From a candidate division Zixibacteria bacterium SM1_73 (lineage in GTDB: Bacteria > Zixibacteria > MSB-5A5 > SM1-73): 61,918 bases of DNA. Position 1 is the stretch's first letter. Every line of letters begins with the position of its first letter. Position numbers and translations under genes: made by a program. Under the pieces are notes generated by a model. The model was given only the letters and a program-made list of their open reading frames with translations, had not been told where the DNA came from and searched no databases. Positions 3,230 through 58,540 of this stretch are shown piece by piece. The stretch lies in contig LJVD01000004.1 in NCBI GenBank assembly GCA_001304225.1, positions 1-61,918 on the forward strand. Direction: 5' to 3'.

Positions 3230-3273
3230 ATATGTACCAGAACTTAAGTTGATCCAATAATTTCATCAAAATC

Positions 3274-3302
3274 AGTATAGCTTTTCGAAAGCTTTCCGTC
3301 AC
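3274..3302 (-). promoter_or_regulatory. second copy of the endoQ promoter-leader module, with no clear gene downstream
   Basis: The minus strand reads GTGACG, a 17-nt spacer, then TATACT. The surrounding ~56 bp (3246-3301) are about 75% identical to 2195-2250. Confidence 0.35.
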
Positions 3303-3421
3303 CAAAACGCAAATAAAGTCCTTGCAAAAAATTACAAAGCTATTATATTAAAAAAACAAATGGGGGTTATTTTTTTTCTACATTTTTGTAGACTCTCTTG
3401 ACGTAGTAAATTGCGTGGGAG

Positions 3422-27556: not shown

Positions 27557-27651
27557 CGGAAGGGGTGGGAATCGAACCCACCTCCCCCCGGACCAACCGA
27601 GGGGACCACGGATTTGAAGTCCGCAAGGACCACCAGATCCTATCCACTACA
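27557..27651 (-). tRNA. selC: tRNA-Sec-like gene (anticodon TCA); acceptor stem not resolved
   Basis: Anticodon loop CUUCAAA, with UCA at 27617-27615. The D arm is a 6-bp stem with a 4-nt loop (AGGAUC-UGGU-GGUCCU). The variable arm is a 9-bp stem (UCCCCUCGG-UUGGU-CCGGGGGGA). The T arm is GUGGG-UUCGAUU-CCCAC. The 3' strand CCCUUCC-G lacks a clean 5' partner; the observed 5' strand is UGUAGUGG. Confidence 0.6.
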
Positions 27652-35240: not shown

Positions 35241-36449
35241 TCACCAAAATATCAAAGAAATTGCCCATGCAATCGAATCTTCTCCAAATCTATCTTTAAT
35301 CTTGTCCATGGCCAAATAGACATCTCTCTTTTGGTCATAAAATTCTGGGAAAGGTAAAGGGATTTGGGAAGAAAATCTGTCTCTGACGAGATTGGAGACA
35401 GATACCCCCAAAAGCCTCACCTTTCTTATCCCCAAGTCAAGACACGCACTCTGTGCCTTGAGGCCGGAGGCAAGCCCTTTAGCCAGCCTGTAGATTTTAT
35501 GTTCGGAATCCGTGGGCTTGGGAATGGTCTCCGATCTGGTGAGGGTCACAAAATCGGAATATCTCAGCTTTAGGGTGATGGTCCTGCCTTGAAGTCCTTT
35601 TCTGCGGAGCCTCCTTGCCACCATGCTTGACAGGGAGAGCAATACGGAGGAGATCTCATCTGGGTCGTTTGTGTCCTTAGGCAAAGTATGTTCATGTCCC
35701 ATGCTCTTCTCTAAAGGACTCTTGACAAGGACGGGGGAGTCGTCTACTCCATTAGCGATAAGATGAAGATATTCCCCAACCTTCCCGAACTGGTCTTTCA
35801 GAACCTCCACCGGAAAGGAAGCCAGATCTCCCACGGTTCTTATGCCAAACTTTGAGAGAACATTACAGGTCTTCTCCCCAATTCCCCAGAGCTTTCCCAC
35901 CTTTAGAGGGTAAAGTGTGTTTTTTATTTGATCCTTTGAAATGATGGTTAAACCATTCGGTTTATTCAAAGAGGAGGCTAACTTGGCCAGAAGCTTATTG
36001 GACGCAATCCCCACCGAACAGGAAAGTTCCAATTCATTCCTGATTTCATTTTTCAATTTCTGCGCTAATTGGTGAGGTGTGCCAAAGAGCCTCTGGCAAC
36101 CGGTTATGTCCAAAAAAGCTTCATCTATGGAGAAGGGTTCCACCGCTGGGGTGAAGTGGTAAAAAATTTTCACCAATTGTGAGGAGACGTAACTGTATTT
36201 TTCTATATCTCTCAAAATGACAAAGGTAGCGTGAGGACACAATTTTCTTGCAAGAGGCAAAGGCATCCCTGCCTCTACTCCATATTTTCTGGCAGGATAG
36301 GAGGCGGCAGAAACCACTCCATGCCTTTTTCGTGGATCTCCCCCCACGATCACCGGCTTTCCTTTAAGCCAGGGACGCTCCTTTTGCTCTACCGAGGCAA
36401 AGAAGGCATCCATATCTACGTGTAAGATTATTCGATCTTTCATGTTCAT
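35241..36449 (-). CDS. dinB: DNA polymerase IV
   Basis: ILHVDMDAFFASVEQ and SIDEAFLD motifs. The 20 aa upstream of 36449 in the ORF track are read from the GGTT/AACC hairpin. Confidence 0.9.
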   Translation of the reverse strand: MNMKDRIILHVDMDAFFASVEQKERPWLKGKPVIVGGDPRKRHGVVSAASYPARKYGVEAGMPLPLARKLCPHATFVILRDIEKYSYVSSQLVKIFYHFTPAVEPFSIDEAFLDITGCQRLFGTPHQLAQKLKNEIRNELELSCSVGIASNKLLAKLASSLNKPNGLTIISKDQIKNTLYPLKVGKLWGIGEKTCNVLSKFGIRTVGDLASFPVEVLKDQFGKVGEYLHLIANGVDDSPVLVKSPLEKSMGHEHTLPKDTNDPDEISSVLLSLSSMVARRLRRKGLQGRTITLKLRYSDFVTLTRSETIPKPTDSEHKIYRLAKGLASGLKAQSACLDLGIRKVRLLGVSVSNLVRDRFSSQIPLPFPEFYDQKRDVYLAMDKIKDRFGEDSIAWAISLIFW

Positions 36450-36454
36450 AGTTA

Positions 36455-36547
36455 GCAAGTTTGCAGGTTTGAAGGTTTCAAAATAACCTTCTAACCTGTT
36501 AATCTTCAAACCTCTTAACCTTTTAGCCTGCTAACTTTCTAACCTGT
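36455..36547. repeat. GGTT/AACC low-complexity long hairpin
   Basis: gtttgcaggtttgaaggtttc ... aaccttctaacctgttaatcttcaaacc, between lexA and dinB. Confidence 0.7.
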
Positions 36548-37159
36548 TCACATCTTTCTTAAAAGCCCGATCACTTTTCCGGCGATGCGAAACTCGGGAC
36601 TTTTCTTGTCCACAACGATCGGCTCAAAGACCGGATTGGCTGGCTCCAATCTTATTCTGTTCTTCTCCGGAAGGTATCTTTTTACGGTTGCCTCCTCCCC
36701 GATGACTGCCACCACAACATCTCCCCTTTCTGCGGTTGGCTGCATTTTTGCCAGAACATAGTCTCCATCAAAGATGCCCGAATCTTTCATGCTGTCACCG
36801 ACGACTTTTAAAGAGAAGATATCCCCTCCGGAAAGGAATGACCTGTCCACCGCAATGCTCCCTTCGATATTCTCCACCGCCAGGATGGGCAATCCAGCGG
36901 CTATTCTGCCCAATAAAGGAATAGCCATAAAAGAAGCCCCGCTTTGGGTCAAAAGCTCAATTCCTCGTGAGACCAAGGGCTTGCGCCTTATGTAACCTTT
37001 TTGGGTCAAAGCAGACAAGATAGCTCTCACCCCATTGGTGGAGCTGATCTTGAACATGTGCCCGATCTCCCTGATGGTGGGGGGATATCCCTTTTTCTGG
37101 ATCATCTCGGTGATGAAATCCAGAACGTCCCTTTGTCTTTTGGTTAATTCTTTTGACAC
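36548..37159 (-). CDS. lexA: LexA repressor
   Basis: N-terminal wHTH and an S24 peptidase core (VVGDSM ... TVKRY). GTG start after GGAGG. Confidence 0.9.
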   Translation of the reverse strand: MSKELTKRQRDVLDFITEMIQKKGYPPTIREIGHMFKISSTNGVRAILSALTQKGYIRRKPLVSRGIELLTQSGASFMAIPLLGRIAAGLPILAVENIEGSIAVDRSFLSGGDIFSLKVVGDSMKDSGIFDGDYVLAKMQPTAERGDVVVAVIGEEATVKRYLPEKNRIRLEPANPVFEPIVVDKKSPEFRIAGKVIGLLRKM

Positions 37160-37164
37160 GGTTC

Positions 37165-37298
37165 CTCCGGTTTAAAGGTTTGCAGGTTAGAAGGTTCAAA
37201 GGTTTGAAAGTTTACAAGTTTGAAGGTTTGCGGGTTTCAAGATTAACCTCTTAACCTTTTAACTTTCCAACCTTCTAACTCTTTAACCTGTTAACCTT
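37165..37298. repeat. GGTT/AACC low-complexity long hairpin
   Basis: The ~60-nt arm ggtttgcaggttagaaggttcaaaggtttgaaag... faces ...aaccttctaactctttaacctgttaaccttctaac. Confidence 0.7.
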
Positions 37299-37661
37299 CT
37301 AACTTTGTTTTAGATAGGATATAAACTTACTTATCATTCTAACACAAATCTCGGCTTGACCGAGCGAAGATCCATATTCTTTGGCGTTAAGGTACTTCTG
37401 ATCCCGTGCCAAATAGAGTTGAGATCTCACCTCCCCTGCTGATCTTTTTGCGTAATACAGAAATCTTACAAAATCATCTTTGCTTTGACTTTCATAGCCT
37501 TCGGCTATATTGGACATTATGGAGATAGCGGCTCTCCTAATCTGATCCCTTTACCCAAAATCTTTAATAAAGTTTTGATGTTTGGTTACCTCATAAACCA
37601 TATTGGTGAGTTTTCTGGCTTCCTGCCAAGCGTTGATTTCCTCAAATCTCTCGATCCTCAT
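37299..37661 (-). pseudogene. four-helix-bundle protein (23S rRNA IVS-protein family) with in-frame TAA
   Basis: From the ATG at 37661: MRIERFEEINAWQEARKLTNMVYEVTKHQNFIKDFG-TAA(37553-37551)-RDQIRRAAISIMSNIAEGYES..., all in one frame. Confidence 0.7.
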
Positions 37662-37718
37662 CCTAACCTCCTAACCTTTTGACCTTTTAACTTTCTAACT
37701 TTTTAACCTTCCAACCTA

Positions 37719-37747
37719 AATATACTGCCCATTTGTGCAGCTGTCAA
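37719..37747 (-). promoter_or_regulatory. sigma70-like promoter with LexA-box-like palindrome in the spacer (lexA operon)
   Basis: The minus strand reads TTGACA (37747-37742), 17 nt, then TATATT (37724-37719). The spacer is CTGCACAAATGGGCAG, giving CTG-N10-CAG and TGCNC-N4-GTGCA. Confidence 0.55.
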
Positions 37748-46026: not shown

Positions 46027-48204
46027 TCAATCCCCAGGTGGAGGTCCACCTCTAAACAGATAATTAATCAAATATACGATATCAGAACTGTTGATTATTC
46101 CGTCACTATTGGTATCGCCAGCCTCCCAGGGAACCGGTTCAGACCCGCTTTTGAAAAGATAATTGATCAGATACGTGACGTCCGCTGAATTGATCACTCC
46201 ATCTCCATTGGCATCACCGCAGGTAAATGCCTGCAACACCACTAGATCCTCCACGTTGCTCCAGGGTCCAATTTGATCCTGTTGATCCTTTGCTTTCACT
46301 TTATAATAATAGATTCCATCAATCTGCCCGGTAATTTGGTGGAAGGTATCCGTGATTGCATCAGACAAGACCACTGTGTTTTGATATGTCTCGAATGGAA
46401 AGATGTCATCTGCATAGAATCCTTCCTCATACACGTAACCGTCGGTTACGTAATGGAGACGAAAGTATATCTGTTCGCCTACATAGTCAGACAGATCGAA
46501 TATCCCTTCCACCCATCCTCCTGATGAACCGGTTATTCCGTTACCCAGGTTGTTTCCATAGGGGTTGTAGTCAGTGGTGATATTTCCGGGAATGGAGAAG
46601 AAAATAGTTCCTCCATCCCTGGAGATCTCCACATAAGCGTAGTCCCAGTTGGTTTCGATATCATACCAACACCACACCTTAAGGGTATCACCAGCCTGAA
46701 CGATTATGCTGTTTTGTGCGGTGACCCTGTTGTTCAATCTATCTCCCTGCCCGGAATAAAAGCTGTGAGAGGATGAGTGGTATCTATTTGTGGAGATGCT
46801 GAAACCGCTCAGGTCCCAGTTCGAATATCCGCTCTCAACATCGTAGGTGATCCTTTCAAATCCGGTCATCTCCACCAGTTCAAAAGAAGCGGCTGGATTC
46901 AGAGTGTCTTGAAAACTCCAGTTTACCACATAATAGGAAGTCTCCACCGTGTCCATCTCTATTAGAACGGGTGAAGCAGGAGGAAGGATTTGATAAGGAT
47001 TGTCCGCCAACTCAGCATACAGAAGATTGGCGGGAAGCTCAAGCTGACATAAAGGCAATATTCTATCAGGCGGAGGCCAGAATCCATCGTCCTGGGTGCC
47101 GATCTCCGGGCTGATGGCAATGATCATAGGTTTGGAGACGGTGTCACCATATTCCCAGTCAATGCTCCCTCCATTAACCGGATACAAAACTTCCCAGGGT
47201 GTACCAGGGGTGTGGCCGTTCAACACCGCCATGGATTCTGCGATAGCTACATAAAGGTTGTGATGGGGGGTGTAAAACTGATCATAGCTCCAGGGATAAA
47301 GAAGCCACATCCCATGGGTATGATTGTCAAGACACATAACGAAATTCCGCGCGTTTATAAAATCTCTTATGACCTGGGTCGCCGGTTCGGAGAACGGTCC
47401 TGATCCTCGATAGGTCTCATCCCAGCAATAGGGGCTGGAGCCCTCATCATCATATCCCCACATATAGCCGAAGTTTCGATTCAGATCCACTCCCCAATTC
47501 CCTCCTCCGCAGTCTCGCCGGTTCTTCCTCCACATTCCACCGCCGTTGGGGTTGGTGTACTCATTATAGCAATACCCATCCGGATTGACCACCAGAACAA
47601 ACCAGAGTTCGCGGTTGTCCACCAGATAGGTGGTCAACGAATCGGTCCCATAGTTTTCCAGAAGATACCACATAAAATACAGAAGTACCTCCATGCCTGC
47701 TGGTTCACGCGCATGAATCAAACTGTTGTAAAAAACCTCCGGCTCATCTTCATCCATGCTTGCATTATCCGAAATCTTGAAAGCCCAGATGACGCTGTCT
47801 TGCAGGCTATGACCAATGTCAATCCGACTGCTGGTGAGGGAAGCATAGAGTGTATGCATGGAATCCAGTTCCGCATTGATTTCACTGTAGGTGTGGTATC
47901 CACCCATATCCTTGGTCCTGTCCAATCTGCTCTGGTAGAAAGCCACCAGATCCTGATGGACGATTTCAACCTCATATCCTAAGGACCTCAGATACTCCAC
48001 TTCTTCTTGATCTGTTACTATGTCTATATATTGACCATACTCCGCATAAGCAATGTCCAAATGCAAGCTTTGTATTTCTCGGATCTGCGCCTTCTCTGCC
48101 AGATGAATTCTTGCGAGCATCACTCTTTCGGCGGAAAAAGCCTGGTTTAGAAAGACAGATGCAAGCAAAAGGGACATCAGCAAAATGAACTTTGGATGTT
48201 TCAT
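46027..48204 (-). CDS. secreted M14 zinc carboxypeptidase with C-terminal double dockerin-like module
   Basis: LIHAREPAG (the HxxE motif). Signal peptide from MKHPKFILLMSLL at 48204. Tail GDANGDGVINSADVTYLINYLFKSG / GDTNSDGIINSSDIVYLINYLFRGGPPP. Confidence 0.85.
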   Translation of the reverse strand: MKHPKFILLMSLLLASVFLNQAFSAERVMLARIHLAEKAQIREIQSLHLDIAYAEYGQYIDIVTDQEEVEYLRSLGYEVEIVHQDLVAFYQSRLDRTKDMGGYHTYSEINAELDSMHTLYASLTSSRIDIGHSLQDSVIWAFKISDNASMDEDEPEVFYNSLIHAREPAGMEVLLYFMWYLLENYGTDSLTTYLVDNRELWFVLVVNPDGYCYNEYTNPNGGGMWRKNRRDCGGGNWGVDLNRNFGYMWGYDDEGSSPYCWDETYRGSGPFSEPATQVIRDFINARNFVMCLDNHTHGMWLLYPWSYDQFYTPHHNLYVAIAESMAVLNGHTPGTPWEVLYPVNGGSIDWEYGDTVSKPMIIAISPEIGTQDDGFWPPPDRILPLCQLELPANLLYAELADNPYQILPPASPVLIEMDTVETSYYVVNWSFQDTLNPAASFELVEMTGFERITYDVESGYSNWDLSGFSISTNRYHSSSHSFYSGQGDRLNNRVTAQNSIIVQAGDTLKVWCWYDIETNWDYAYVEISRDGGTIFFSIPGNITTDYNPYGNNLGNGITGSSGGWVEGIFDLSDYVGEQIYFRLHYVTDGYVYEEGFYADDIFPFETYQNTVVLSDAITDTFHQITGQIDGIYYYKVKAKDQQDQIGPWSNVEDLVVLQAFTCGDANGDGVINSADVTYLINYLFKSGSEPVPWEAGDTNSDGIINSSDIVYLINYLFRGGPPPGD

Positions 48205-48550
48205 ACTGACCTTACCAATTCTTTTTTCCCCTCTCTGGGTTAGAGCTTGTTTTTTCCCTTTCGGCGAACTCAGATGCCCTCTCATTCCGTGGATGAGAGA
48301 CTCTAAGCTTCTATTATAATTTAAATAATTCAACAAATTTGTCAATAACAATCCATGCGCACTTTGGTCGCTTTTTAGGAGCAAAAAATTCCTCCTTGTT
48401 GGTATCTTTTGCACTTGATGACCTTATAAAAAAGCTCTTTTCTGCTCACTTAATTTGGTTAAGATTCGTTCATATTGCTTAAGATTTGTGCATACATGCT
48501 CTTCCAGTACCTTCAGTTATCTTTCGTTTGGACCGAATCCCAGCACAAGA

Positions 48551-50630: not shown

Positions 50631-50973
50631 AAGAGCTTCCTTAAATCAAACGATTTATTTCTCCCGGGAATGATAAACACAAATCGTTTCACATTAGATA
50701 ATACAATGGATCGGCTTTGTCAAGCAATTATTTAGAAGTGCTCCGATCATATCTGCATACGGCAAGTCAGACCTGCCCGTTGGTATGCACCATATGAAGC
50801 ATACCGTTGGCATGAACCATTTGGTTCATATAGTCAGAAAATAAGGAGTTTCTTTGTTTACAAATTTTTTAGTCGGGTCAAAACCCGACAGTACTCACGT
50901 TAGTTGCAGCGTACAACTCTGCCTACTCTGAACACCGTTGAAGGAGGGTGTGACGCTCTTTTATTTGCAGAAT

Positions 50974-51003
50974 GGTCAAGGGTGAGACACCCTTGACCAA
51001 CAA
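50974..51003 (+). repeat. REP-like hairpin, family H (left flank of accessory island)
   Basis: ggtcaagggtgagacacccttgaccaacaa. The reverse complement of 58645-58675 differs by a single 1-nt indel. Confidence 0.75.
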
Positions 51004-51119
51004 GCCATTTCTTTCGTCAGGTACAAGACCCGTAGCCATCTCATATTGCCTGTAGCCACGAAACTCCGGGTGCGATGCTTTTTCTGTGTGTTAAAGAAAC
51101 AGTCGAGTAAACTCGACCA

Positions 51120-53777
51120 TTACATCAATCCGTTTGATTCGATGACAAGCCCCTCCGCCATCTTTCCTATCTCTACATCTGTATTTTTCAAAAGCGCATC
51201 CTTGTTTAATTCTATGTTTTTCTTGGGTATGGTCAATCGATAAGAACCCAAGCGATTATTTTCAAAGAGAGCTTGACCCTGGTTTAGACTTGGTTTTATC
51301 TGGTTTTTTAACCTATGCAAATATCTGGCCTGATTTTCTCCTGGTTCGAAATCGTCTTTGTGAATCCATCCACCTTCATTTTTGAAGAGTGCCCAGGTCA
51401 GCTTAATCAAATATTTGAAACTCTTTGCAGGGAGATTTACCCTCTTTCCGTTAACCAAAACCGAAAACTTATCCTTTACTGCAGATCCATCAATCACCAA
51501 CTCTATTCCCTCTTGTTCTAAACTTCGAGTCTCCTGTTTTTTTGACCTAAATATAGAATCTTGAACCTTGAATTTTGAATCGTGAATTCTTTCTTTCAAT
51601 CTTTCCGCCACTCTGGTCGGGATGAGTTTTTCCAACTCAGCAAGTTTCGCTTCCTTTATTTTCTTTGGGTCGGAAAACTTGTTTTCCACCAAATTCCAGA
51701 TGTAATCTCTGCCAAGTCCAGGAGTTCTCAATTTTGCCAACTTCAAACCTCTTTGATCCACTCCGAAGTTCACCCCTTGTGAGAGGTTTTTTAAGAAAGC
51801 AATTAACTTTCTGCTTAAGTTTAAAACACGAGCAATTCCACAAGCAGCATCCAGAAGCCAGCTTGCCTTTTTGCCAATCTGATCGATCTGACCTGACCGG
51901 CAATAATATTTGTTCTCTAAATTTAGGGTATTTTGGGGTGTTATCCAATCGGACAAAAGGAAAGAAAGTTTTACCAACTGGGTCTCTTTATGAGTGAATC
52001 CAATTTTTCTTTCCAAAAGGTCTTTGATCTCGTCATTTGTGCTTTGACTTTGTGGATATCTTTGCGACAATGCCTCTTCGTAGACTTTGTTCTGCTCCTC
52101 AAAAGGAAAAACATTTATATAAATATCCTCTCCGTCCTTTGTATCCAAAATATCATAAAACCAACTGAAAGGATCGAAATCTGAAGGTCCCTCTAATTTC
52201 CTCTTAAGAAGGAGTCCGGTTTGAACGGAGATACCCTTGAGAGCACACAAAGTCCCAAGCTTGGAGGCAAAGACTGTTTTTCCCTTGTCTGTGGTTAGAA
52301 GCATTTTATTTTGAATTAACTCTTCGACTTTTTCATCCAAAGCCCCGCCAAAGGCGGGATCGGAAATAAATCTTCCACTGGGAGCGGCTTTGATAACTTG
52401 TTCCAACTGAGACCTGTTTTTGGCGGCTTTGGATGTGATCAAGTCCAAGATTGTATCTTCCATATCCTTTTTATCTAACTGGAAAACGATCTTTTCGTCC
52501 TCTCCTTCGATATATCCTTCCCAAAGGGAATCGAAATGGAATTTATTAGCCGCAATCAGGATGGATCTGCCAAAATCTTTCTCCAGTCCGAATCTCCCTG
52601 CCCTTCCGGACATGTTTTCATATTCGCTCAAAGATATGGGCAGCATCACCGTCTTACCCGAATATTCTCCTAATTGATATTTTTGAGTCTCGATGAAAAC
52701 GGTTTTGGCGGGAAGGTTGACTCCCATAGATAAAGTGGTGGTGGAGAAGATAACCCTGACCTCTCCCTGGAGATAGAAAAACTCAACTGTCCTTCTTTCG
52801 TCAAAAGACAAGTCTGCATTGTGAAAGGCTATCCCTTTTTGAAGGCATCCTATCAGTTTTTCTTTCAAGGTAGTGTTTTCCAAATCAGACAAAGCCTCGA
52901 TTGCGTTCAAACAAGGAGGAAGGTTCGCTTTCTCCGAAAAAAGAGAGGCAAGAGTTTCTGAATCGAGTTTGCTTTTCAAAAAAACTAGGACCTGTTCGCC
53001 ATCCTTGACTAATTTTTCCACATTAGCAAAAAGAATCGGATGTGCTTCTTCCGAATCCAAGCTCACCAATTCCTCTGTTCCCTCTTCCCTTGAATTATGT
53101 TTTTTGTAGAAAAAATTTCCATCCAGGAGTATTCCCTGCCAAAGCTCCACCGGTCTTGATTTCTCTAAAAGAAGCTTGCATTCTAACCAGGAGGACAATT
53201 CATCCACCTCACTCAAAACGGCAGATAGACCCAAAATCTGCGGGCGATACTTGGAAGTTCTAATTTTGAGCAAAGCCAACTCCAAAACCGGGCCCCGGGA
53301 GGGATCAGCGATCATCTGAAGTTCATCCACAATGATGAGATTGACCTGGTTCAAAATATCCATATTCTTGATCAGAAGCTGATTGAACTTTTCGTAGATC
53401 ATGATGGCCAAATCGAAATCACCCTTTTCTATTCTTCTATCATGTTCCTGCCGATCCTTGGTGGAGATGACCACACCTATCCCTAGTTCTGAATATTTCT
53501 CCTGAAAATCTGAAAACTTCTCCTCGGCTATGGCTTTTAAGGGGACCAGATAGATCACCTTTTTCCTTTTGAATAAATTTGCCACCGAAGCCATCTCACC
53601 GCAGAAAGTCTTACCCGAAGAGGTGGGAGCGGAGATGATCAGACTTTGACCATTCAACAGGCCATGTTTGGTTACTGCTAAGGCTTGTAGAGGTAATAGC
53701 TCTTCACCCTGATTTTTTCTCCAGCTTTCGATGACCGACTCGGGAATTCCATATCTTAAAAGTTTTTCTACTCTCAT
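51120..53777 (-). CDS. Hel308/Ski2-like SF2 helicase fused to a C-terminal OmpR/PhoB-type winged-helix domain
   Basis: LLPLQALAV, Walker A APTSSGKT and VDELQ. HhH-like LRTPGLGRDYIWNLV. C-terminal VNGKRVNLPAKSFKYLIKLTWALFKNEGGWIHKDDF...RYLHRLKNQI...RLGSYRLTI matches the trans_reg_C pattern. Confidence 0.75.
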   Translation of the reverse strand: MRVEKLLRYGIPESVIESWRKNQGEELLPLQALAVTKHGLLNGQSLIISAPTSSGKTFCGEMASVANLFKRKKVIYLVPLKAIAEEKFSDFQEKYSELGIGVVISTKDRQEHDRRIEKGDFDLAIMIYEKFNQLLIKNMDILNQVNLIIVDELQMIADPSRGPVLELALLKIRTSKYRPQILGLSAVLSEVDELSSWLECKLLLEKSRPVELWQGILLDGNFFYKKHNSREEGTEELVSLDSEEAHPILFANVEKLVKDGEQVLVFLKSKLDSETLASLFSEKANLPPCLNAIEALSDLENTTLKEKLIGCLQKGIAFHNADLSFDERRTVEFFYLQGEVRVIFSTTTLSMGVNLPAKTVFIETQKYQLGEYSGKTVMLPISLSEYENMSGRAGRFGLEKDFGRSILIAANKFHFDSLWEGYIEGEDEKIVFQLDKKDMEDTILDLITSKAAKNRSQLEQVIKAAPSGRFISDPAFGGALDEKVEELIQNKMLLTTDKGKTVFASKLGTLCALKGISVQTGLLLKRKLEGPSDFDPFSWFYDILDTKDGEDIYINVFPFEEQNKVYEEALSQRYPQSQSTNDEIKDLLERKIGFTHKETQLVKLSFLLSDWITPQNTLNLENKYYCRSGQIDQIGKKASWLLDAACGIARVLNLSRKLIAFLKNLSQGVNFGVDQRGLKLAKLRTPGLGRDYIWNLVENKFSDPKKIKEAKLAELEKLIPTRVAERLKERIHDSKFKVQDSIFRSKKQETRSLEQEGIELVIDGSAVKDKFSVLVNGKRVNLPAKSFKYLIKLTWALFKNEGGWIHKDDFEPGENQARYLHRLKNQIKPSLNQGQALFENNRLGSYRLTIPKKNIELNKDALLKNTDVEIGKMAEGLVIESNGLM

Positions 53778-53849: not shown

Positions 53850-53878
53850 AATATACTGCACATCTGTGCAGATGTCAA
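53850..53878 (-). promoter_or_regulatory. sigma70-like promoter with LexA-box-like palindrome (helicase gene)
   Basis: The minus strand reads TTGACA (53878-53873), 17 nt, then TATATT (53855-53850). The spacer is the perfect palindrome CTGCACA-GA-TGTGCAG. 36 of 39 nt are identical to the lexA-operon promoter. Confidence 0.55.
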
Positions 53879-54331: not shown

Positions 54332-54886
54332 CTAAACACGTCTCATGGCGCTTATAAAATCAGGGTCAAGGCCAAGCTCCAAATCTTCGCAATCATCATC
54401 TGATAAGTCGACAGGAATCCTTGGTGGCAGCTTTTCCTCAAAAATGTCTATTCCCTTTGCCACCGCCTCCAAATATTCTGGGTCGGAATGTGCCTTTTTG
54501 AGCAATTCTTCCTCTGGAAGATAACCGTATGTCTCTACCGATTTATTGATTTTTTCTTTCAGTTTGGCGTGAGTATGAGACATAGCCAGACTGTAGAATC
54601 TCATACTCTTTTTGTCTGTTAGAGAGTACTTATTCCCCTGGCCACTCTCAAGCGGGGTCGCCTTAGTATGATTCATGGACAATAGCTGTTCGTTAATAGT
54701 ATCTAAATCACCGCTGTGCGGACCATATAGATCGCATTTAAATCCAAATGGTTTTAGGCTGGCGTTTTTTAGGCCAAAATAGGCAACTTTGTTCAGCCTA
54801 AGCAGTCCGTAAACTCCATCCTTGAAGCGTCCAATGGTATACAAAAGGACCAATCTTTTGAAGGTATCTTTAGATATAGTACCCAT
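54332..54886 (-). CDS. Panacea (DUF4065)-like antitoxin candidate
   Basis: LLRLNKVAYFGL...FKCDLYGPHSGDLDTINEQL resembles the KLxKLLYxA...YGPV signature. Acidic C-terminal tail. Confidence 0.5.
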   Translation of the reverse strand: MGTISKDTFKRLVLLYTIGRFKDGVYGLLRLNKVAYFGLKNASLKPFGFKCDLYGPHSGDLDTINEQLLSMNHTKATPLESGQGNKYSLTDKKSMRFYSLAMSHTHAKLKEKINKSVETYGYLPEEELLKKAHSDPEYLEAVAKGIDIFEEKLPPRIPVDLSDDDCEDLELGLDPDFISAMRRV

Positions 54887-55307
54887 TTCGTTTACCTCCG
54901 TTTTGAAGCCTTTTCGACTTCATTCCACACAATTCAGAAAAATCTCGGTTTTTGATTGCTTTTTCTATTTTTTTGCACATATACCAGGTGGTTTTGTAAG
55001 GGAGCTCCAAATCTCTGCTTATTTGATTTATCGTCGCTTTCTTGGTTGAACAAATGAGATACAAAGCTATGAACCATTTGGTTAATGGAATGTAAGTTTT
55101 GTGAAAAATAGTTCCGGCGGTAACGGAGAATTGATACCTGCAATGGGAACATTCAAATTTTTTAACCGTTTCAATCCTTGTGATTTTCCTTCCACCGCAT
55201 CTCGGACAAAGAACACCATTTGGCCAACGTACCTTCTCAAGATACTTCTCGCATTCCTGTTCGGTTGCTAACCTGTTTATTATTTCTAACAACCTCATAA
55301 GAATCAT
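54870..55307 (-). CDS. stand-alone IS1595-type transposase zinc-ribbon domain protein (no DDE domain)
   Basis: CEKYLEKVRWPNGVLCPRCGG...FECSHCRYQFSVTAGTIFHKTYIPLTKWF. It overlaps the next gene by 17 nt. Confidence 0.65.
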   Translation of the reverse strand: MILMRLLEIINRLATEQECEKYLEKVRWPNGVLCPRCGGRKITRIETVKKFECSHCRYQFSVTAGTIFHKTYIPLTKWFIALYLICSTKKATINQISRDLELPYKTTWYMCKKIEKAIKNRDFSELCGMKSKRLQNGGKRNGYYI

Positions 55308-55665: not shown

Positions 55666-57033
55666 ATGACTTCCTTTTTAAGAGATTTCTGGAAAAGGCT
55701 TTTTGCTCGCCGGAGATCGGTTCTTCCAATTAAAAGCGCGAATCAAAATGAATTTAATGTTATGATTGGTCAAAGTCTTGGAGGCATCAAGTCAAAGAAG
55801 TTTAACTTCTCCGCAGGCTCTGTGGGAAAAGAATTTCCCACCTCGCCGGTCTCTAAAAGAACCTCATATTTGGGTCAAGGAGGACTTCTACTACCTCAGT
55901 CCAGCTTATATGATAGTTCTTTTCGCATCAGGCTTTACCGTTTCCTGAGGGATAATATCCCGGTTTTGAACTCTGCGATCTGGACCTGGACTCGCATCTG
56001 TGCCTCACCCAGCTATTTTGAATTGAAAGGATCAGAGGAGCCCAAACTTTTGGATAATGCATTTGAGGTGCTCAAGAATTTGGATCGACGCATTTATCAA
56101 CACAGCTTCCAGAAGTTCGGTGGAGCCGATGCGCTTTTGACCCAATTTTTTGGCTCGCTTTTCACCGATGGTGCAGTGTGTGGAGAGTTAGTTTTAACCG
56201 CGTCCAGAGATAAATTGGACAAGTTCTATTTCATCGATCCTGCCACCATCAGATTTAAGCTGAAAGATGATACCAATTGGGAGCTTTACCAGGAAGTGGA
56301 TGGGGTAGAAGTTAAGCTTAATCCAGCCTCCATTTTCTATCTGGGTTTAGACCCGGATCCGGACGATCCCAGGGGGAAAAGCATTTTGAGCTCCATTCCT
56401 TTCGTGGCGAGGGTGGAACAGAGGCTTTTGGAGGATATGCAAAAGACCATGCACAATGCGGGTTACCATCGCTTGCACGTGAAGATAAAGCCACCGGAAA
56501 GGTGCTCCGGCGAATCGGATGAGACTTATATTTCGAGGGCAAATAAGTATTTCGAAGATACGGTTGAGATGATGAAAGAGCTGGCTCCGGAGGATAATCC
56601 CATCACCTGGGACGATATCGGAATCGAATACATCGGTCCCTCCGGACACGTTGCATCCTCCAATTATTGGTATATTAACCACAAAGCCTTGGTGGAGGAC
56701 ATCTGTGCGGGAGTGCATCTGGACCCATTTATGTTGGGCTATTCTTACGGACCTACCAGAAGCTGGGCACAGTTTAAATATGAACTGATGTTAAGAAACG
56801 TCATCTCCATACAGGGCTTAGCTAAAAGATTTATGGAGTGGATCAGAAACATCGAACTGGCTCTGTGGAGAATACCTTTGGAATGTGTTCATCATTTTGA
56901 TAATCGGAAGTTCTTCGGGATGCTGGAGCAAAGAGAAGCAGAGAAGATTCATCTGGAAAATGTCATTCGAAAAAAAGAGTCGGGATTTATCTCAGAGGAG
57001 CAGGCGAAGAGGGAGATAGAAAGTATCCAGTAG
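55666..57033 (+). CDS. putative phage portal protein
   Basis: 455 aa. Size, adjacency to the large terminase, and portal-like segments (IPVLNSAIWTWTR, PRGKSILSSIPFVARVEQRLLEDM). Confidence 0.5.
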   Translation: MTSFLRDFWKRLFARRRSVLPIKSANQNEFNVMIGQSLGGIKSKKFNFSAGSVGKEFPTSPVSKRTSYLGQGGLLLPQSSLYDSSFRIRLYRFLRDNIPVLNSAIWTWTRICASPSYFELKGSEEPKLLDNAFEVLKNLDRRIYQHSFQKFGGADALLTQFFGSLFTDGAVCGELVLTASRDKLDKFYFIDPATIRFKLKDDTNWELYQEVDGVEVKLNPASIFYLGLDPDPDDPRGKSILSSIPFVARVEQRLLEDMQKTMHNAGYHRLHVKIKPPERCSGESDETYISRANKYFEDTVEMMKELAPEDNPITWDDIGIEYIGPSGHVASSNYWYINHKALVEDICAGVHLDPFMLGYSYGPTRSWAQFKYELMLRNVISIQGLAKRFMEWIRNIELALWRIPLECVHHFDNRKFFGMLEQREAEKIHLENVIRKKESGFISEEQAKREIESIQ

Positions 57034-57066
57034 GCAGTACTCAGTAGGCAGACTTCAAACCTGAGA

Positions 57067-57126
57067 TGTAGGGGCGAACCTTCGGGTTCGCCCAAATGTG
57101 GGTGGAGCTGAAGCTCCACCCCTACA
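57067..57126. repeat. nested REP hairpin between portal and terminase
   Basis: tgtagggg[cgaacc-ttcg-ggttcg]cccaaatgtg[ggtggagc-tgaa-gctccacc]cctaca. Confidence 0.7.
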
Positions 57127-57187
57127 TTTTAGCTTTTCGTTACCGTTAAGCGAGCTTCTAATTACGATGGGTTAAAGGGATGATGAT

Positions 57188-58540
57188 TTGCGAAAATCAC
57201 ATGGTTCGACCAAGAAAAAGAAATTTTGGCGAAAAGCAATTTCAGATCCAGTTTTATTTGCCAAAGAATTTTTGGAGATCGAACCGCATCCGGGACAGAT
57301 AAAGTGGCTTTCTGATTCTACCAAACCTGAAAATGCCCTCCATACCGGGAATCGTTGGGGGAAAAGCTTAGTTCAAGCCATCAAAATCCTTCACCGCTGT
57401 ATTTTCAAAATCAGAAATCTTAAATACGATAATGCCGATAAATACGAAGCGGTCAACGCCTCCATCACCCAGGATCAGGCAAAGATTATTTTCAGCAACG
57501 TTATCAGATTGATTAAAGGGAAGCCACTTTTCGAGATTCTGGTGAAAGACGTAAAGTTTACCCCCTTTCCCCATATTATCCTTAGAAACGGTGCTGTCTT
57601 TTGGGCACGGTCGACTCAGAGAAGAGGAGAGTATCTTCTGGGGCACGATTATGACTATTTCAACTTCGATGAGGTAGCATTTGAGCCGCATCCCGAATAT
57701 GTGGTTAATCAGGTTATTATGATGAGACTGGCAGACAGGGCTGGAATGCTGGACTATACCTCCACACCCAAAGGCAAAAACTGGTTTTACCGAAAATGCG
57801 GTGAGCTTCAAAGAAATCCTAAAATCGGTTATGTCCAAAACGGAGATTCCCGTGAAAATCCACATATAAGCCAGGAATATTTGGAGAGAAAATTGAAGAC
57901 TCTATCTCCCAGCAAGATTGAACAAAACATAAAAGGACTATTTATCGACGATGCTTGCCAAATGATAAAAGAGGAATATATCCGAAATGCCATGACTGCC
58001 TCCACTGGTTTATCCAAACCAGCTCCAGGACACCGATACTGTCATGGTTGGGATTTAGCCCGAAAAAGAACTTTTACCGTGGGCATCACCCTGGATATAA
58101 CCCAAAAACCTTATCAAGTTGTGGCTTTTGAGAGGTTTCAAAGAGAGTGGAAGGACGTGTATTCTGCGATCAGAAGAAGGCATAAGGAATATGGCGGAGA
58201 GGTGATAATCGACTCCACCGGATTAGGGGACGTAGTGTTGGCGGAGCTGTCGGACATTAAACCTCAAGGTTTCAATTTCGGAGAAAGGGGAGGAAAAGCA
58301 AAATCTGAGCTTATTGCCAATTTGGAACAAATGCACGCCTTGGGCAATATCGCCTATCCATATGTGGAGCAGATTGAAGAGGATGGGGAATTATGGACTT
58401 TGCAGGATGAGCTGCGAAATTTTTACTGGGACAAGAATCAGGAATGCGATGCAGTGATGGCATTAGCGTTGGCTTTGTGGCTGGTAAGAGAAGGAGAAAA
58501 ATCGCCGTTGATTTTGTTGCCAAGGGTAGAAAAGATTTAA
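57188..58540 (+). CDS. phage terminase large subunit
   Basis: Walker A-like HTGNRWGKS, Walker B YDYFNFDEVAF, and nuclease-domain acidic motifs CHGWDLARK and IIDSTGLGD. TTG start. Confidence 0.7.
   Translation: MRKSHGSTKKKKFWRKAISDPVLFAKEFLEIEPHPGQIKWLSDSTKPENALHTGNRWGKSLVQAIKILHRCIFKIRNLKYDNADKYEAVNASITQDQAKIIFSNVIRLIKGKPLFEILVKDVKFTPFPHIILRNGAVFWARSTQRRGEYLLGHDYDYFNFDEVAFEPHPEYVVNQVIMMRLADRAGMLDYTSTPKGKNWFYRKCGELQRNPKIGYVQNGDSRENPHISQEYLERKLKTLSPSKIEQNIKGLFIDDACQMIKEEYIRNAMTASTGLSKPAPGHRYCHGWDLARKRTFTVGITLDITQKPYQVVAFERFQREWKDVYSAIRRRHKEYGGEVIIDSTGLGDVVLAELSDIKPQGFNFGERGGKAKSELIANLEQMHALGNIAYPYVEQIEEDGELWTLQDELRNFYWDKNQECDAVMALALALWLVREGEKSPLILLPRVEKI

What the first reader, a model, noticed from the sequence alone, without database searches (positions are those of the whole stretch)
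51120..53777. Bacterial Hel308/Ski2-like helicase fused to an OmpR-type winged helix
The N-terminal ~700 aa follow the Hel308 layout: the LLPLQ Q-motif region, APTSSGKT, DELQ, a ratchet-sized middle part, and the HhH-like LRTPGLGRDYIWNLV. A further ~130 aa match the trans_reg_C pattern (LPAKSFKYLIKLTW...RYLHRLKNQI...GSYRL).

I do not know of Hel308-type helicases with an OmpR DNA-binding tail. In bacteria, Hel308-like helicases are mostly seen in defence contexts such as Hachiman HamB, but no HamA-like partner is present here. The gene lies in an island with a TA operon and phage packaging genes, under an SOS-type operator.
Basis: partly seen in the sequence, partly recalled or inferred. Interest (0 to 1): 0.7.

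Follow-up and report, generated by a model that had tools for sequence, protein, structure and literature searches.

The report
SOS-controlled bacterial Hel308 helicase with winged-helix tail
A Zixibacteria genome encodes an archaeal-type Hel308 DNA-repair helicase that carries an extra OmpR-like DNA-binding domain and sits behind a conserved LexA (DNA-damage) operator, an architecture kept across the phylum and not described in the papers searched.

Summary
Window 51120-53777 (minus strand) is an 885-aa ORF from a Zixibacteria MAG.

- **Helicase body.** Residues 1-735 form a complete five-domain Hel308/Hjm-type helicase. The model superposes on archaeal Hjm/Hel308 with TM 0.83-0.89, and HamB matches only the motor domains.
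- **Tail.** A disordered linker (736-756) leads to a well-folded module (760-885). Its top 43 PDB fold matches are all OmpR/PhoB-family DNA-binding domains. A profile-profile test against Trans_reg_C gives P=1e-5, although Pfam does not detect it.
- **Conservation.** The tail is as conserved as the RecA motor (50% vs 51-56%).
- **Distribution.** The fusion occurs in 48 species-representative genomes (26 labelled Zixibacteria). No partner gene recurs and no HamA is present.
- **Regulation.** The promoter is TTGACA-N-CTGCACAGATGTGCAG-TATATT. The same design drives the window's own lexA-dinB operon, precedes lexA in its closest relatives, and precedes the helicase in about 40 other genomes.

The best reading is a vertically inherited, SOS-induced repair helicase, not a defence or prophage gene. 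The flanking phage genes are real but incidental, and the TA operon is not supported. How the tail works is inferred (duplex anchoring or targeting). This is a new variant of a known kind, of moderate interest.

The parts
51120..53777 (-). Complete gene: 885-aa Hel308-family helicase with a C-terminal winged-helix module (stop codon 51120-51122)
   Evidence: ORF and translation. Identical to P0001, 'candidate division Zixibacteria bacterium SM1_73' AMJ73_00755.
52503..53777 (-). RecA1 + RecA2 motor, about aa 1-425. Q-motif LLPLQ, motif I APTSSGKT, motif II DELQ, motif III SAV, motif VI SGRAGR.
   Evidence: Pfam DEAD aa 40-193 and Helicase_C aa 308-397. Motifs and invariant columns. Boundaries are approximate, taken from the AF2 model.
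51573..52502 (-). Hel308 accessory domains: WH domain 3 (about aa 426-515), ratchet domain 4 (about 516-672), HhH domain 5 plus the start of the long connecting helix 721-750 (about 673-735)
   Evidence: Pfam Helicase_dom4_arc aa 596-667. Alignment to Hjm 2zj2 through aa 718. Foldseek TM 0.83-0.89 to Hjm/Hel308. Boundaries are approximate.
51504..51572 (-). Flexible linker with several Lys/Arg (about aa 736-758)
   Evidence: pLDDT below 50 for aa 736-756 in the full-length model. Only 14% mean pairwise identity over aa 721-758.
51228..51503 (-). OmpR/PhoB-type winged helix-turn-helix (about aa 759-850): three N-terminal strands, alpha1, short beta and alpha2, recognition helix alpha3 (NQxRYxxRLK), wing hairpin (ENNRxGxYRL)
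   Evidence: AF2 tail model pLDDT 87. Top 43 Foldseek PDB hits are all OmpR/PhoB-family DNA-binding domains. hhalign P=1.1e-5 against Trans_reg_C. 50% mean pairwise identity. pI 9.8.
51123..51227 (-). Conserved C-terminal extension of the module (about aa 851-885): a short strand plus two helices, not part of the canonical OmpR domain
   Evidence: AF2 secondary structure E855-857, H859-863, H868-883. Conserved columns I111, N114, L118, D123, E125, I126 of A1.
53850..53878 (-). Helicase promoter with embedded operator: -35 TTGACA (53878-53873), one base, 16-bp palindrome CTGCACAGATGTGCAG (53871-53856), -10 TATATT (53855-53850). It lies about 70 nt upstream of the ATG.
   Evidence: Sequence. Promoter scan scores 11/12. 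The palindrome occurs only twice in the window, against 0.3 expected. The same layout is found in 38 of 42 sites in related loci, 40 of them upstream of a helicase gene or its fragments.
37719..37747 (-). Second copy of the same promoter and operator design, upstream of the lexA-dinB operon: TTGACA g CTGCACAAATGGGCAG TATATT
   Evidence: The closest LexA relatives carry the same box 90-383 bp upstream of lexA: 7 of 7 at 52% identity or above or with the box, and 0 of 73 among the others.
36548..37159 (-). lexA, the predicted repressor acting on the helicase operator
   Evidence: NCBIfam TIGR00498 lexA equivalog, 216.9 bits against a cutoff of 110.95. Pfam LexA_DNA_bind + Peptidase_S24.
35241..36509 (-). 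dinB (DNA polymerase IV), directly downstream of lexA on the same strand (apparently co-transcribed). A canonical SOS gene that marks the shared operator as an SOS box.
   Evidence: NCBIfam PRK02406 at 341 bits (cutoff 256) and PRK03103 at 392 bits (cutoff 381). Pfam IMS/IMS_C.

Best explanation
This is a chromosomal, vertically inherited DNA-repair helicase of the Hel308/Hjm family and a core member of the Zixibacteria SOS regulon.

Regulation. In undamaged cells a LexA dimer sits on the 16-bp palindrome that fills the spacer between the -35 and -10 hexamers, and blocks RNA polymerase. After DNA damage LexA self-cleaves and the gene is transcribed.

Enzyme. The protein is a 3'-to-5' SF2 single-strand DNA translocase with the full Hel308 set: RecA1, RecA2, WH, ratchet and HhH 'brake' domains. 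By analogy with archaeal Hel308 and HELQ it should act on stalled forks, D-loops or other branched intermediates, by unwinding and/or annealing.

Tail. A basic (pI about 9.5) OmpR/PhoB-superfamily winged helix hangs on a flexible linker of about 20 residues. It most likely binds duplex DNA through its recognition helix (invariant N-Q-x-x-Y-x-x-R face) and its wing (NNR-x-G-x-YR). That would anchor or target the acidic helicase body (pI 5.9) on the double-stranded arm of its substrate, much as accessory WH and HRDC domains are thought to do in RecQ.

Shown here: the architecture, the fold, conservation across the phylum, and the operator shared with lexA. Inferred: LexA binding, damage induction, helicase polarity and substrates, and the DNA-anchoring role of the tail.
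For: **Hel308 identity**
- End-to-end NCBIfam Hel308 models, E=5e-106.
- PDB sequence hits to Hjm and Hel308 at E=1e-57 to 1e-61, through domain 5.
- Full-length AF2 model pLDDT 89. Foldseek places Hjm/Hel308 first (E about 1e-41, TM 0.83-0.89), then the Pol-theta helicase domain, then Brr2.
- All ATPase motifs are invariant across 45 homologues.

**wHTH tail**
- Fold matches are exclusively OmpR/PhoB DNA-binding domains.
- hhalign P=1.1e-5.
- The tail is basic while the helicase body is acidic.
- The tail is as conserved as the motor: 50% against 51-56%, compared with 27-33% for domains 3-5.
- The invariant residues lie at i, i+1, i+4 and i+7 of alpha3 and in the wing.

**Housekeeping rather than mobile**
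- More than 100 homologues at 47-88% identity with 99% coverage.
- 48 GTDB species representatives, with the tail in frame with an 860-1074-aa helicase.
- The neighbours vary and are housekeeping genes: thiC, Lon, purL, ruvCAB, EF-G.

**SOS control**
- The promoter/operator design is identical upstream of the helicase and of the lexA-dinB operon in the same window.
- The box is present upstream of lexA in its closest relatives and absent from more distant lexA loci.
- There are 45 boxes in 526 kb of related loci against 0-3 in shuffles, 43 of them just upstream of the helicase or its fragments.
- 38 of 42 have the TTGACA-N-box-TATAAT-like layout.
Against: - No biochemical data exist for any member, and Zixibacteria are uncultured.
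- Motif II is DELQ rather than the DExH typical of Hel308.
- All Hel308 equivalog scores are far below their cutoffs (355 against 887 bits), so orthology with archaeal Hel308, and hence shared substrates, is not established.
- OmpR-type domains usually read specific sequences as tandem dimers. Non-specific duplex anchoring is therefore an assumption.
- The alpha2-alpha3 region is shorter than in OmpR/PhoB.
- The same module exists as a free-standing protein in phage- or plasmid-like and archaeal contigs with no helicase nearby. Its ligand therefore need not be a helicase substrate.
- LexA binding to the palindrome is inferred from comparative genomics only. My recollection that Fibrobacter LexA binds TGCNCN4GTGCA could not be verified in the held literature.
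Confidence: 0.6

Rival explanations
1. The tail is a protein-protein adaptor rather than a DNA binder. It would couple an archaeal-derived helicase to bacterial machinery, for example the acidic C-terminal tail of SSB (from memory, the RecQ winged helix does this), the sliding clamp, or RNA polymerase (OmpR/PhoB domains contact sigma or alpha-CTD).
For: Archaeal Hel308 and HELQ depend on RPA contacts through other regions, which a bacterial host cannot supply (review PMC13623763). The tail is basic (pI about 9.5). It is tethered by a flexible linker. It carries a conserved extra C-terminal extension that OmpR domains lack.
Against: The most conserved positions are those that contact DNA in OmpR/PhoB-type domains: one face of alpha3 and the wing RxGxY. 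Free-standing copies occur in archaea and phages, where partners would differ. No partner gene co-occurs.
Confidence: 0.15
2. The tail is a sequence-specific DNA reader. The protein would be a site-directed helicase or a helicase-transcription-factor hybrid. In the extreme version the tail itself, not LexA, recognises the CTGCACA-N2-TGTGCAG palindrome and autoregulates the gene.
For: OmpR/PhoB domains are classically sequence-specific. The alpha3 residues are invariant across the family, which fits one fixed target. The palindrome always accompanies the gene, including the free-standing module in L055.
Against: - The palindrome also precedes lexA-dinB in this genome and lexA in relatives. LexA autoregulation is the established explanation for a 16-bp CTG-N10-CAG palindrome upstream of lexA.
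- From general knowledge, OmpR-family domains typically bind direct repeats, not palindromes.
- The region corresponding to the transactivation loop is short.
- Only two such sites exist in 62 kb.
Confidence: 0.07
3. It is an RNA or R-loop helicase (Ski2-like RNA surveillance, or RNA:DNA hybrid removal as with Lhr and HELQ) rather than a fork or recombination DNA helicase.
For: The Ski2-like superfamily includes many RNA helicases. Motif II DExQ is shared with the RNA helicase Suv3, and there is a weak Pfam DEXQc_Suv3 hit. HELQ has a reported R-loop role (PMC11835494, listed).
Against: The best sequence and structure matches are the DNA helicases Hel308/Hjm and Pol-theta, ahead of Brr2, Mtr4 and Ski2. 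LexA control and a dsDNA-type wHTH point to DNA-damage processing. R-loop removal after damage is not excluded and would be a sub-case of the main explanation.
Confidence: 0.08
4. It is an anti-phage defence helicase (Hachiman HamB-like, or another helicase-based system), or cargo of the adjacent phage/IS island.
For: PADLOC HamB models hit at E=4e-37. Portal, large terminase and an IS1595 fragment lie within 4 kb upstream. A weak DarG-like ORF is adjacent.
Against: - The HamB hits cover the motor and part of domain 3 (aa 40-483) and score 126 bits, against 356 bits end to end for Hel308 models. HamB 8vx9 reaches only 6e-16 in PDB and is absent from the top 50 fold hits.
- There is no HamA or any recurring partner.
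- The gene is present with the same promoter across a phylum, in varied housekeeping neighbourhoods.
- The phage genes are absent from the otherwise syntenic locus L002.
Confidence: 0.04

Closest known systems
Archaeal Hel308 / Hjm (for example P. furiosus Hjm 2zj2/2zj8, A. fulgidus Hel308 2p6r, S. solfataricus 2va8)
   Same: Same five-domain architecture (RecA1, RecA2, WH, ratchet, HhH). About 25% identity over about 700 residues. TM 0.83-0.89. These are the best hits of all sequence and structure searches.
   Different: - The host is bacterial.
- Motif II is DELQ, not DExH.
- Scores fall far below the NCBIfam equivalog cutoffs.
- About 150 extra C-terminal residues form a linker plus an OmpR-like wHTH and an extension.
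- Transcription is under a LexA operator, and archaea have no SOS/LexA system.
Human HELQ and the Pol-theta helicase-like domain
   Same: Same Hel308 family core. Pol-theta HLD is the second-best structural match (TM 0.76-0.82). In HELQ, accessory regions appended to the core direct it to its substrates (N-HELQ, review PMC13623763).
   Different: The appended region here is C-terminal and is a wHTH, not an N-terminal IDR/PWI-like RPA-binding region or a polymerase.
OmpR/PhoB-family DNA-binding domain (Pfam Trans_reg_C, PF00486; includes CadC, ToxR and SARP types)
   Same: Same order of secondary-structure elements (N-terminal sheet, alpha1, beta, alpha2, alpha3, wing hairpin). The top 43 Foldseek hits are exclusively this family. 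Profile-profile P=1.1e-5, in register. The RxGxY wing signature is kept.
   Different: - Not detected by the Pfam model.
- Shorter alpha2 and alpha2-alpha3 loop.
- An extra conserved C-terminal strand plus two helices.
- Fused to a helicase, or free-standing at about 125-150 aa, rather than to a receiver or membrane domain.
- Recognition-helix residues are invariant across the whole family instead of varying with operator specificity.
Hachiman HamB
   Same: An SF2 Ski2-like motor found in bacteria. PADLOC HamB HMMs hit the motor and part of domain 3.
   Different: There is no HamA. The full Hel308 ratchet and HhH domains align to Hel308, not HamB. The gene is conserved as a core gene under LexA control rather than patchily in defence islands.
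Bacterial fork and recombination helicases with accessory DNA-binding domains (RecQ WH+HRDC, RecG wedge, PriA, Lhr)
   Same: Functional analogy: a 3'-5' SF2 motor plus an accessory nucleic-acid-binding domain that selects branched substrates. From general knowledge, several such helicases are damage-inducible.
   Different: A different helicase family. RecQ, RecG and Lhr models score 85 bits or less on the motor only. No known member carries an OmpR-type domain.
LexA boxes of other phyla (E. coli CTGT-N8-ACAG; Fibrobacter TGCNCN4GTGCA, recalled from memory and not verified)
   Same: A 16-bp palindrome with CTG-N10-CAG geometry. It overlaps the promoter and is present upstream of lexA itself.
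   Different: The inner bases differ from the E. coli box. A Zixibacteria LexA box has not been described in the literature I could search.

Membership tests
Hel308/Hjm/HELQ helicase family | Five-domain architecture: RecA1, RecA2, winged helix, ratchet, helix-hairpin-helix | tested here: met
   Pfam DEAD, Helicase_C and Helicase_dom4_arc. Hel308 models cover aa 3-751. The alignment to Hjm runs through domain 5. The AF2 model against Hjm/Hel308 gives TM 0.83-0.89 over whole targets.
Hel308/Hjm/HELQ helicase family | Conserved SF2 ATPase and translocation motifs (Q, I, Ia, II, III, V, VI) | tested here: met
   L27, L28, Q31, G55, K56, D151, E152, T346, T348, G391, A393, G394 and R395 are invariant in 45 homologues. 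Motif strings are listed.
Hel308/Hjm/HELQ helicase family | DExH form of motif II | tested here: inconclusive
   Motif II is DELQ, and Q154 is at least 90% conserved. The catalytic D and E are kept. The H-to-Q change also occurs in the active helicase Suv3, so it is a variant and not evidence of inactivity.
Hel308/Hjm/HELQ helicase family | Score above the curated equivalog cutoff (orthology with archaeal Hel308) | tested here: not met
   Best score is 355.7 bits against a cutoff of 887 (PRK02362). NF040935 helicase_Hel308 gives 268 against 1200. This is a divergent subfamily, not an equivalog.
Hel308/Hjm/HELQ helicase family | 3'-5' DNA helicase, translocase or annealase activity on forks | not testable with these tools
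   Requires biochemistry.
OmpR/PhoB winged helix (Trans_reg_C) | Fold: N-terminal beta-sheet, alpha1-beta-alpha2-alpha3, C-terminal beta-hairpin wing | tested here: met
   AF2 tail model pLDDT 87 with E16-23, E26-31, E34-39, H40-55, E60-62, H72-86, E94-96 and E101-104. The top 43 Foldseek PDB hits are all this family, with TM on the target up to 0.65.
OmpR/PhoB winged helix (Trans_reg_C) | Match to Pfam PF00486 at the gathering threshold | tested here: not met
   No hit at E<=10 for the fused tail. Only 1 of 32 free-standing members reaches E=0.011.
OmpR/PhoB winged helix (Trans_reg_C) | Detectable sequence homology by profile-profile comparison | tested here: met
   hhalign of 64 tail-family sequences against 120 Trans_reg_C domains: probability 81.7%, P=1.1e-5, 81 aligned columns in structural register.
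OmpR/PhoB winged helix (Trans_reg_C) | DNA binding through alpha3 and the wing | not testable with these tools
   Only indirect support: a conserved alpha3 face and wing, and pI about 9.5.
Hachiman (HamA/HamB) defence system | Adjacent HamA (DUF1837) nuclease partner | tested here: not met
   No HamA in Pfam or PADLOC scans of the neighbours. No recurring partner in about 46 loci.
Hachiman (HamA/HamB) defence system | Full-length best match to HamB | tested here: not met
   HamB HMMs score at most 126 bits, over aa 40-483 only. PDB HamB 8vx9 gives E=6e-16, against 1e-61 for Hjm.
SOS (LexA) regulon | Operator identical in type to the one upstream of the organism's own lexA, overlapping the promoter | tested here: met
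   TTGACA-N-16-bp palindrome-TATATT occurs at both the helicase and the lexA-dinB operon. The box lies upstream of lexA in its closest relatives only.
SOS (LexA) regulon | Operator conserved upstream of orthologues | tested here: met
   45 sites in 526 kb against 0-3 in shuffles, 43 of them upstream of the helicase or its fragments. 38 of 42 have the full promoter layout.
SOS (LexA) regulon | LexA binding and damage-induced expression | not testable with these tools
   Requires EMSA, transcriptomics or reporter assays.
Lhr / ligase-associated DEXH helicases | Full-length match to Lhr-core models | tested here: not met
   TIGR04121 scores 85.5 bits on aa 16-200 only. PRK13767 scores 65.6 bits.

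The most novel reading that the evidence does not exclude
The roughly 125-aa wHTH-plus-extension module would be a previously unrecognised, portable DNA-damage or replication-intermediate recognition domain. It would work in cis when fused to Hel308 across Zixibacteria. It would work in trans as a free-standing protein: one under a LexA box in a Zixibacteria lineage (L055), and others in phage recombination/replication modules and in DPANN-type archaea. On this reading it acts as a dedicated loader or targeting factor for Hel308-type helicases. Zixibacteria would then have captured an archaeal Hel308 and wired it into the bacterial SOS regulon as their main fork-repair helicase.
Probability: 0.2. 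Interest if true: 0.75.

Novelty: new variant of a known kind. Interest (0 to 1): 0.55.

Why it matters
Reviews describe Hel308/HELQ as conserved 'from archaea to humans' (PMC13623763). Bacterial members outside defence systems are essentially unstudied.

- **A bacterial Hel308 lineage.** Here a whole bacterial phylum keeps a complete Hel308-type enzyme as a core gene. It is regulated by the bacterial DNA-damage repressor through an unusually well-conserved promoter/operator.
- **An undescribed fusion.** The enzyme carries a DNA-binding module that no other helicase family is known to have. This would be a natural case of an archaeal-type repair motor integrated into a bacterial stress network.
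- **A new domain family.** The tail defines an unannotated branch of the OmpR/PhoB winged-helix superfamily (603 representative clusters at E<=1e-3, with no Pfam model).
- **A candidate LexA box.** The analysis yields a candidate LexA box for Zixibacteria (CTGCACA-N2-TGTGCAG), usable to map the SOS regulon of an uncultured phylum.

The practical limit is that nothing can be tested in the native organism. The value lies in heterologous biochemistry and comparative genomics.

Tried and rejected
- **Pfam and PHROGs on the tail and neighbours.** No Trans_reg_C hit for the tail even at E<=10, so the sequence-level claim rested on hhalign instead.
- **Tail profile against PDB sequences.** Only chance-level hits (subtilisins at E about 0.05; response regulator 1p2f at E=1).
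- **Tail model against viral structures (BFVD).** Nothing meaningful; best E=0.17.
- **Cluster-member names for taxonomy.** Nearly all unnamed.
- **Rosetta-stone idea.** I tested whether free-standing modules sit next to a Hel308 gene. They do not. L005 has CDC48, L006 has phage recombination genes, and L138 has a methyltransferase and Rep.
- **Apparent Zixibacteria 'stand-alone' copies.** Several are artefacts: a helicase gene fragmented by frameshifts in L136 and one truncated at a contig edge in L137. Counts of free-standing members are therefore inflated.
- **Verifying the Fibrobacter LexA box TGCNCN4GTGCA.** Not found in the held library. It is cited as recollection only.
- **TPP riboswitch or other RNA between the helicase and thiC.** None.
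- **Defence and prophage-cargo readings.** Rejected on synteny, the absence of a partner and LexA control.
- **Not done.** A phylogeny against archaeal Hel308, ASH-Ski2 and HamB.

Full report
**1. The observation**

The window holds a single long ORF at 51120-53777. It is on the minus strand, 885 aa long, and starts at an ATG preceded by a GGAGG-type ribosome-binding site. The product is identical to the hypothetical protein AMJ73_00755 of 'candidate division Zixibacteria bacterium SM1_73'. Zixibacteria belong to the FCB group.

**2. The helicase body**

- Pfam finds DEAD (aa 40-193), Helicase_C (308-397) and the archaeal helicase domain 4 (596-667).
- The four best NCBIfam models are all archaeal Hel308-type equivalogs matched end to end. 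PRK02362 gives E=5e-106, aa 3-751 against model positions 3-723 of 739. All score far below their equivalog cutoffs.
- Against PDB sequences the best hits are P. furiosus Hjm (2.6e-61, aa 16-718) and the Hel308 structures. ASCC3, Brr2 and Pol-theta follow. HamB 8vx9 reaches only 6e-16.
- PADLOC HamB models score at most 126 bits and cover only the motor and part of domain 3, aa 40-483.
- A full-length AlphaFold2 model built on 45 homologues is confident (pLDDT 89.1, pTM 0.77). It superposes best on Hjm/Hel308 (E about 1e-41, TM 0.83-0.89 on the target), then on the Pol-theta helicase domain, then on Brr2.
- The ATPase motifs are invariant in the family. Motif II is DELQ rather than DExH.

It is therefore a complete, presumably active, five-domain Hel308-family helicase. 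It forms a divergent bacterial subfamily rather than an equivalog of the archaeal enzyme.

**3. The tail**

The full-length model shows a disordered segment at aa 736-756, followed by a well-folded module at 760-885.

- Pfam does not recognise the tail, even at E<=10. A tail profile finds nothing significant among PDB sequences.
- A tail-only model from 32 homologues is confident (pLDDT 87.2, pTM 0.83). Its order of elements is three beta-strands, alpha1, a short beta and alpha2, alpha3, and a beta-hairpin. An extra strand and two helices follow.
- The first 43 Foldseek PDB hits are all OmpR/PhoB-family DNA-binding domains: ArlR, BaeR, CadC, AdeR, VicR, PhoP, CovR and ToxR. The best is E=6.9e-3 at probability 1.0, and TM on the target reaches 0.65.
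- I built a genuine Trans_reg_C alignment of 120 response-regulator domains. I compared it by hhalign with 64 tail-family sequences. The result is probability 81.7% and P=1.1e-5 over 81 columns, in register from beta3 to the wing.
- The invariant residues are G764, S786, F787, L790, K792, G803, W804, H806, G813, N815, Q816, Y819, R822, N840, G844 and Y846 (with 744 added to its numbering).
- N815, Q816, Y819 and R822 lie on one face of alpha3. N840, G844 and Y846 lie in the wing, with R842 and R847 nearly invariant. These are the surfaces that contact DNA in OmpR/PhoB domains (established knowledge).
- The tail is basic (pI 9.5) while the helicase body is acidic (pI 5.9).
- The wHTH is as conserved as the RecA motor, at 50% mean pairwise identity against 51-56%. 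Domains 3-5 are at 27-33% and the linker region at 14%.

The 'OmpR-type winged helix' reading is therefore supported at fold and profile level. The module is a divergent, unannotated branch of that superfamily.

**4. Distribution**

- The 120 best homologues of the full protein run from 88% down to 47% identity. Those from complete genes have about 99% coverage and lengths of about 850-980 aa. Every one with an organism name is from Zixibacteria.
- A tail profile finds 603 representative clusters at E<=1e-3 in 1.84 billion proteins, and 264 at E<=1e-10.
- All mid-length hits tested are truncated copies of the same helicase architecture.
- In GTDB species representatives the tail occurs in 48 genomes. 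By record title, 26 are Zixibacteria, including the founding RBG-1 genome. Eighteen are 'uncultured Ignavibacteria/Ignavibacteriales' co-assembly MAGs, whose labels I could not verify. One is Ignavibacterium sp., one is Terriglobales and two are unnamed.
- In nearly all loci with intact upstream sequence the tail is in frame with an 860-1074-aa helicase ORF. L043 and L053 are explained by scaffold gaps. In RBG-1 (L048) the tblastn alignment covers aa 1-884 in one frame while the uninterrupted ORF is only 328 aa, so the gene apparently carries an in-frame stop.
- A second architecture is a free-standing protein of about 125-150 aa. Some apparent Zixibacteria examples are artefacts of frameshifted or truncated helicase genes.
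- Genuine free-standing copies occur in several settings:
  - a phage-like early/recombination region (L006: Rad52-like, HTH_3, DUF5131);
  - a mobile-element-like region (L138: N6/N4 methyltransferase, Rep);
  - an archaeal-type contig (L005: TFIIS-type Zn ribbon, CDC48);
  - a protein labelled Nanoarchaeota.
- None of the free-standing members is annotated or has a Pfam domain.

**5. Genomic context**

- There is no HamA and no other recurring partner. Clustering the flanking ORFs of about 46 loci shows only housekeeping neighbours in subsets: a Lon-like gene directly downstream in 17 loci, a PurL-like gene divergently upstream in 7, and ExbD/TonB-like genes. Lon and PurL are confirmed by precomputed Pfam hits in L136/L137 and L004.
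- In the window the downstream gene is thiC. That adjacency is kept in a 78%-identical relative (L001, L002), while the upstream side differs. More distant relatives have quite different neighbours: BshABC, DinB-family, EF-G and RuvCAB in L003, and PurL in L004.
- The phage portal (55666-57033) and large terminase (57188-58540) are real. So is an IS1595 zinc-ribbon fragment at 54870-55307. They are incidental to the helicase.
- The two small ORFs immediately upstream give only a ParE-like hit at E=0.13 and a DarG-like hit at 2.8e-5. The 'TA operon' is therefore not supported.

**6. Regulation: the most informative result**

About 70 nt upstream of the start codon lies a near-consensus sigma-70 promoter, TTGACA-17-TATATT. 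Its spacer is filled by a perfect 16-bp palindrome, CTGCACAGATGTGCAG.

- Within 3 mismatches the palindrome occurs only twice in the 62-kb window, against 0.3 expected.
- The second copy is at 37725-37740 and has the identical layout: TTGACA g CTGCACAAATGGGCAG TATATT.
- That second promoter lies upstream of an operon encoding LexA (TIGR00498 above cutoff) and DNA polymerase IV (above cutoff).
- Among 80 metagenomic lexA loci, all six with LexA at 52% identity or above, plus one at 48%, carry the same box 90-383 bp upstream of lexA. None of the other 73 does.
- Across 526 kb of related loci (the GTDB tail loci L008-L055 plus L001-L004) there are 45 sites within 2 mismatches, against 0-3 in shuffles. 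Forty-three lie just upstream of the helicase or its fragments. One precedes the free-standing module in L055, and one lies far downstream in L039.
- In 38 of 42 sites the layout is TTGACA, one base, the palindrome, then a TATAAT-like hexamer.

A palindrome of CTG-N10-CAG geometry that sits in the organism's own lexA promoter is, by established knowledge of LexA autoregulation, the LexA box. The helicase is therefore a conserved SOS-regulon member, and its promoter would be occluded by bound repressor. From memory, the core TGCAC-N4-GTGCA matches the Fibrobacter succinogenes LexA box. I could not verify that in the held literature.

One high-GC Zixibacteria lineage (L055) encodes only the free-standing module, behind the same promoter/operator: TTGACA g CTGCCCAAATGTGCAG TATCAT. 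This is a single case. It suggests the module itself is tied to the damage response.

**7. Mechanism**

Shown:
- a complete Hel308-type motor;
- a tethered OmpR-like wHTH under strong constraint;
- inheritance across the phylum;
- a LexA-type operator shared with lexA-dinB.

Inferred:
- LexA represses the gene until DNA damage occurs.
- The enzyme then translocates 3'-5' on ssDNA at stalled forks or recombination intermediates, as archaeal Hel308 and HELQ do (PMC13623763).
- The basic wHTH binds the duplex arm, increasing affinity or specificity for branched substrates.

The rivals, with my estimated probability for each, are:
- a protein adaptor to SSB, clamp or RNAP (0.15);
- a sequence-specific reader or autoregulator (0.07);
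- an RNA or R-loop helicase (0.08);
- a defence or prophage function (0.04).

**8. Comparison and novelty**

The protein works like, and is structurally a member of, the Hel308 family. It fails the curated equivalog thresholds and has a DExQ motif II. The tail has the OmpR/PhoB fold and detectable profile homology but fails the Pfam model.

I found no paper describing a Zixibacteria Hel308, a LexA-regulated Hel308, or an OmpR-type domain on any helicase.

I rate it a new variant of a known kind, with interest of about 0.55. It is a clear and well-supported architecture with an unexpected regulatory link. It lies in an uncultured phylum, and the role of the tail remains inferential.

Noticed in passing
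window 37160-37725 (minus strand), between the LexA-box promoter and lexA: A four-helix-bundle protein gene (TIGR02436, E=1e-34 once two frames are joined) lies between the promoter and lexA. It appears frameshifted in this assembly. It is flanked by arrays of 8-bp-period repeats (GGTT-rich at 37162-37244; AACC-rich at 37236-37313 and 37656-37725), with a 43-nt inverted-repeat pair. In the closest relatives the LexA box is only about 90 bp from lexA. This looks like a cassette inserted into the lexA leader.
   Followed up: partly
window 35241-37747 (minus strand): A lexA-dinB (DNA polymerase IV) operon with its own LexA-type box. Together with the helicase site it gives a candidate Zixibacteria LexA-box consensus, CTGCACA-N2-TGTGCAG, always embedded in the -35/-10 spacer.
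   Followed up: yes
L055 393-1329 (DAIOGN010000073.1, high-GC Zixibacteria MAG): A free-standing copy of the wHTH module of about 155 aa. tblastn finds no helicase homology in the 975 bp available upstream. It is driven by the same TTGACA-N-palindrome-TATCAT promoter. An RNase-H-like/exonuclease-looking 407-aa ORF lies nearby at 2701-3924 (-).
   Followed up: partly
L006 6001-6390, L138 5001-5459, L005 6001-6402: Genuine free-standing homologues of the tail. L006 is a phage-like recombination/replication region (Rad52-like, HTH_3, DUF5131). L138 is a mobile-element-like region (N6/N4 methyltransferase, Rep). L005 is an archaeal-type contig (TFIIS Zn ribbon, CDC48). All are unannotated.
   Followed up: partly
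window 55666-58540 (+); L001 3720-6529: A phage portal and large-terminase gene pair lies close to the helicase. In the 78%-identical relative L001 a terminase-like gene and an adjacent 457-aa ORF sit in the corresponding place, there with an S49-type protease and a PIN gene. The otherwise syntenic L002 has a NUDIX gene instead. This may be a shared prophage remnant.
   Followed up: partly
window 54332-55307 (minus strand): An IS1595-type transposase zinc-ribbon fragment (145 aa, N-terminal part only), overlapping a 184-aa ORF with a weak DarG-like PADLOC hit (E=2.8e-5). The adjacent 123-aa ORF has only a ParE-like hit at E=0.13. This is a possible degraded mobile or TA remnant.
   Followed up: partly
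L009-L054 and L136-L137, immediately downstream of the helicase: In 17 species representatives an approximately 830-aa Lon-like gene follows the helicase on the same strand, at a median gap of about 220 bp. Lon domains are confirmed in L136 and L137. This is not so in the window, where thiC follows.
   Followed up: no
L048 3655-6372 (RBG-1, AUYT01000001.1): In the founding Zixibacteria genome the helicase aligns to aa 1-884 in a single frame, but the uninterrupted ORF is only 328 aa. That implies an in-frame stop: a sequencing error, a pseudogene or recoding. No LexA-type box within 2 mismatches was found in that locus.
   Followed up: no
window 27559-27650 (minus strand): A tRNA-Sec gene (Rfam RF01852, 62.9 bits). 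It is the only Rfam hit at gathering threshold in the window.
   Followed up: no
window 50631-51119: The 490-bp gap between the helicase stop and thiC has no detectable TPP riboswitch or other Rfam element, even at E<=1. From general knowledge that is unusual for thiC.
   Followed up: partly
window 46027-48414 (-); L001 6956-9646; L003 5019-7802: Large secreted proteins with dockerin domains lie near the helicase in several genomes. In the window it is an M14 carboxypeptidase with a MAM-like domain and a dockerin. They form the most frequent 'neighbour cluster', probably only through shared repeat or sorting domains.
   Followed up: no
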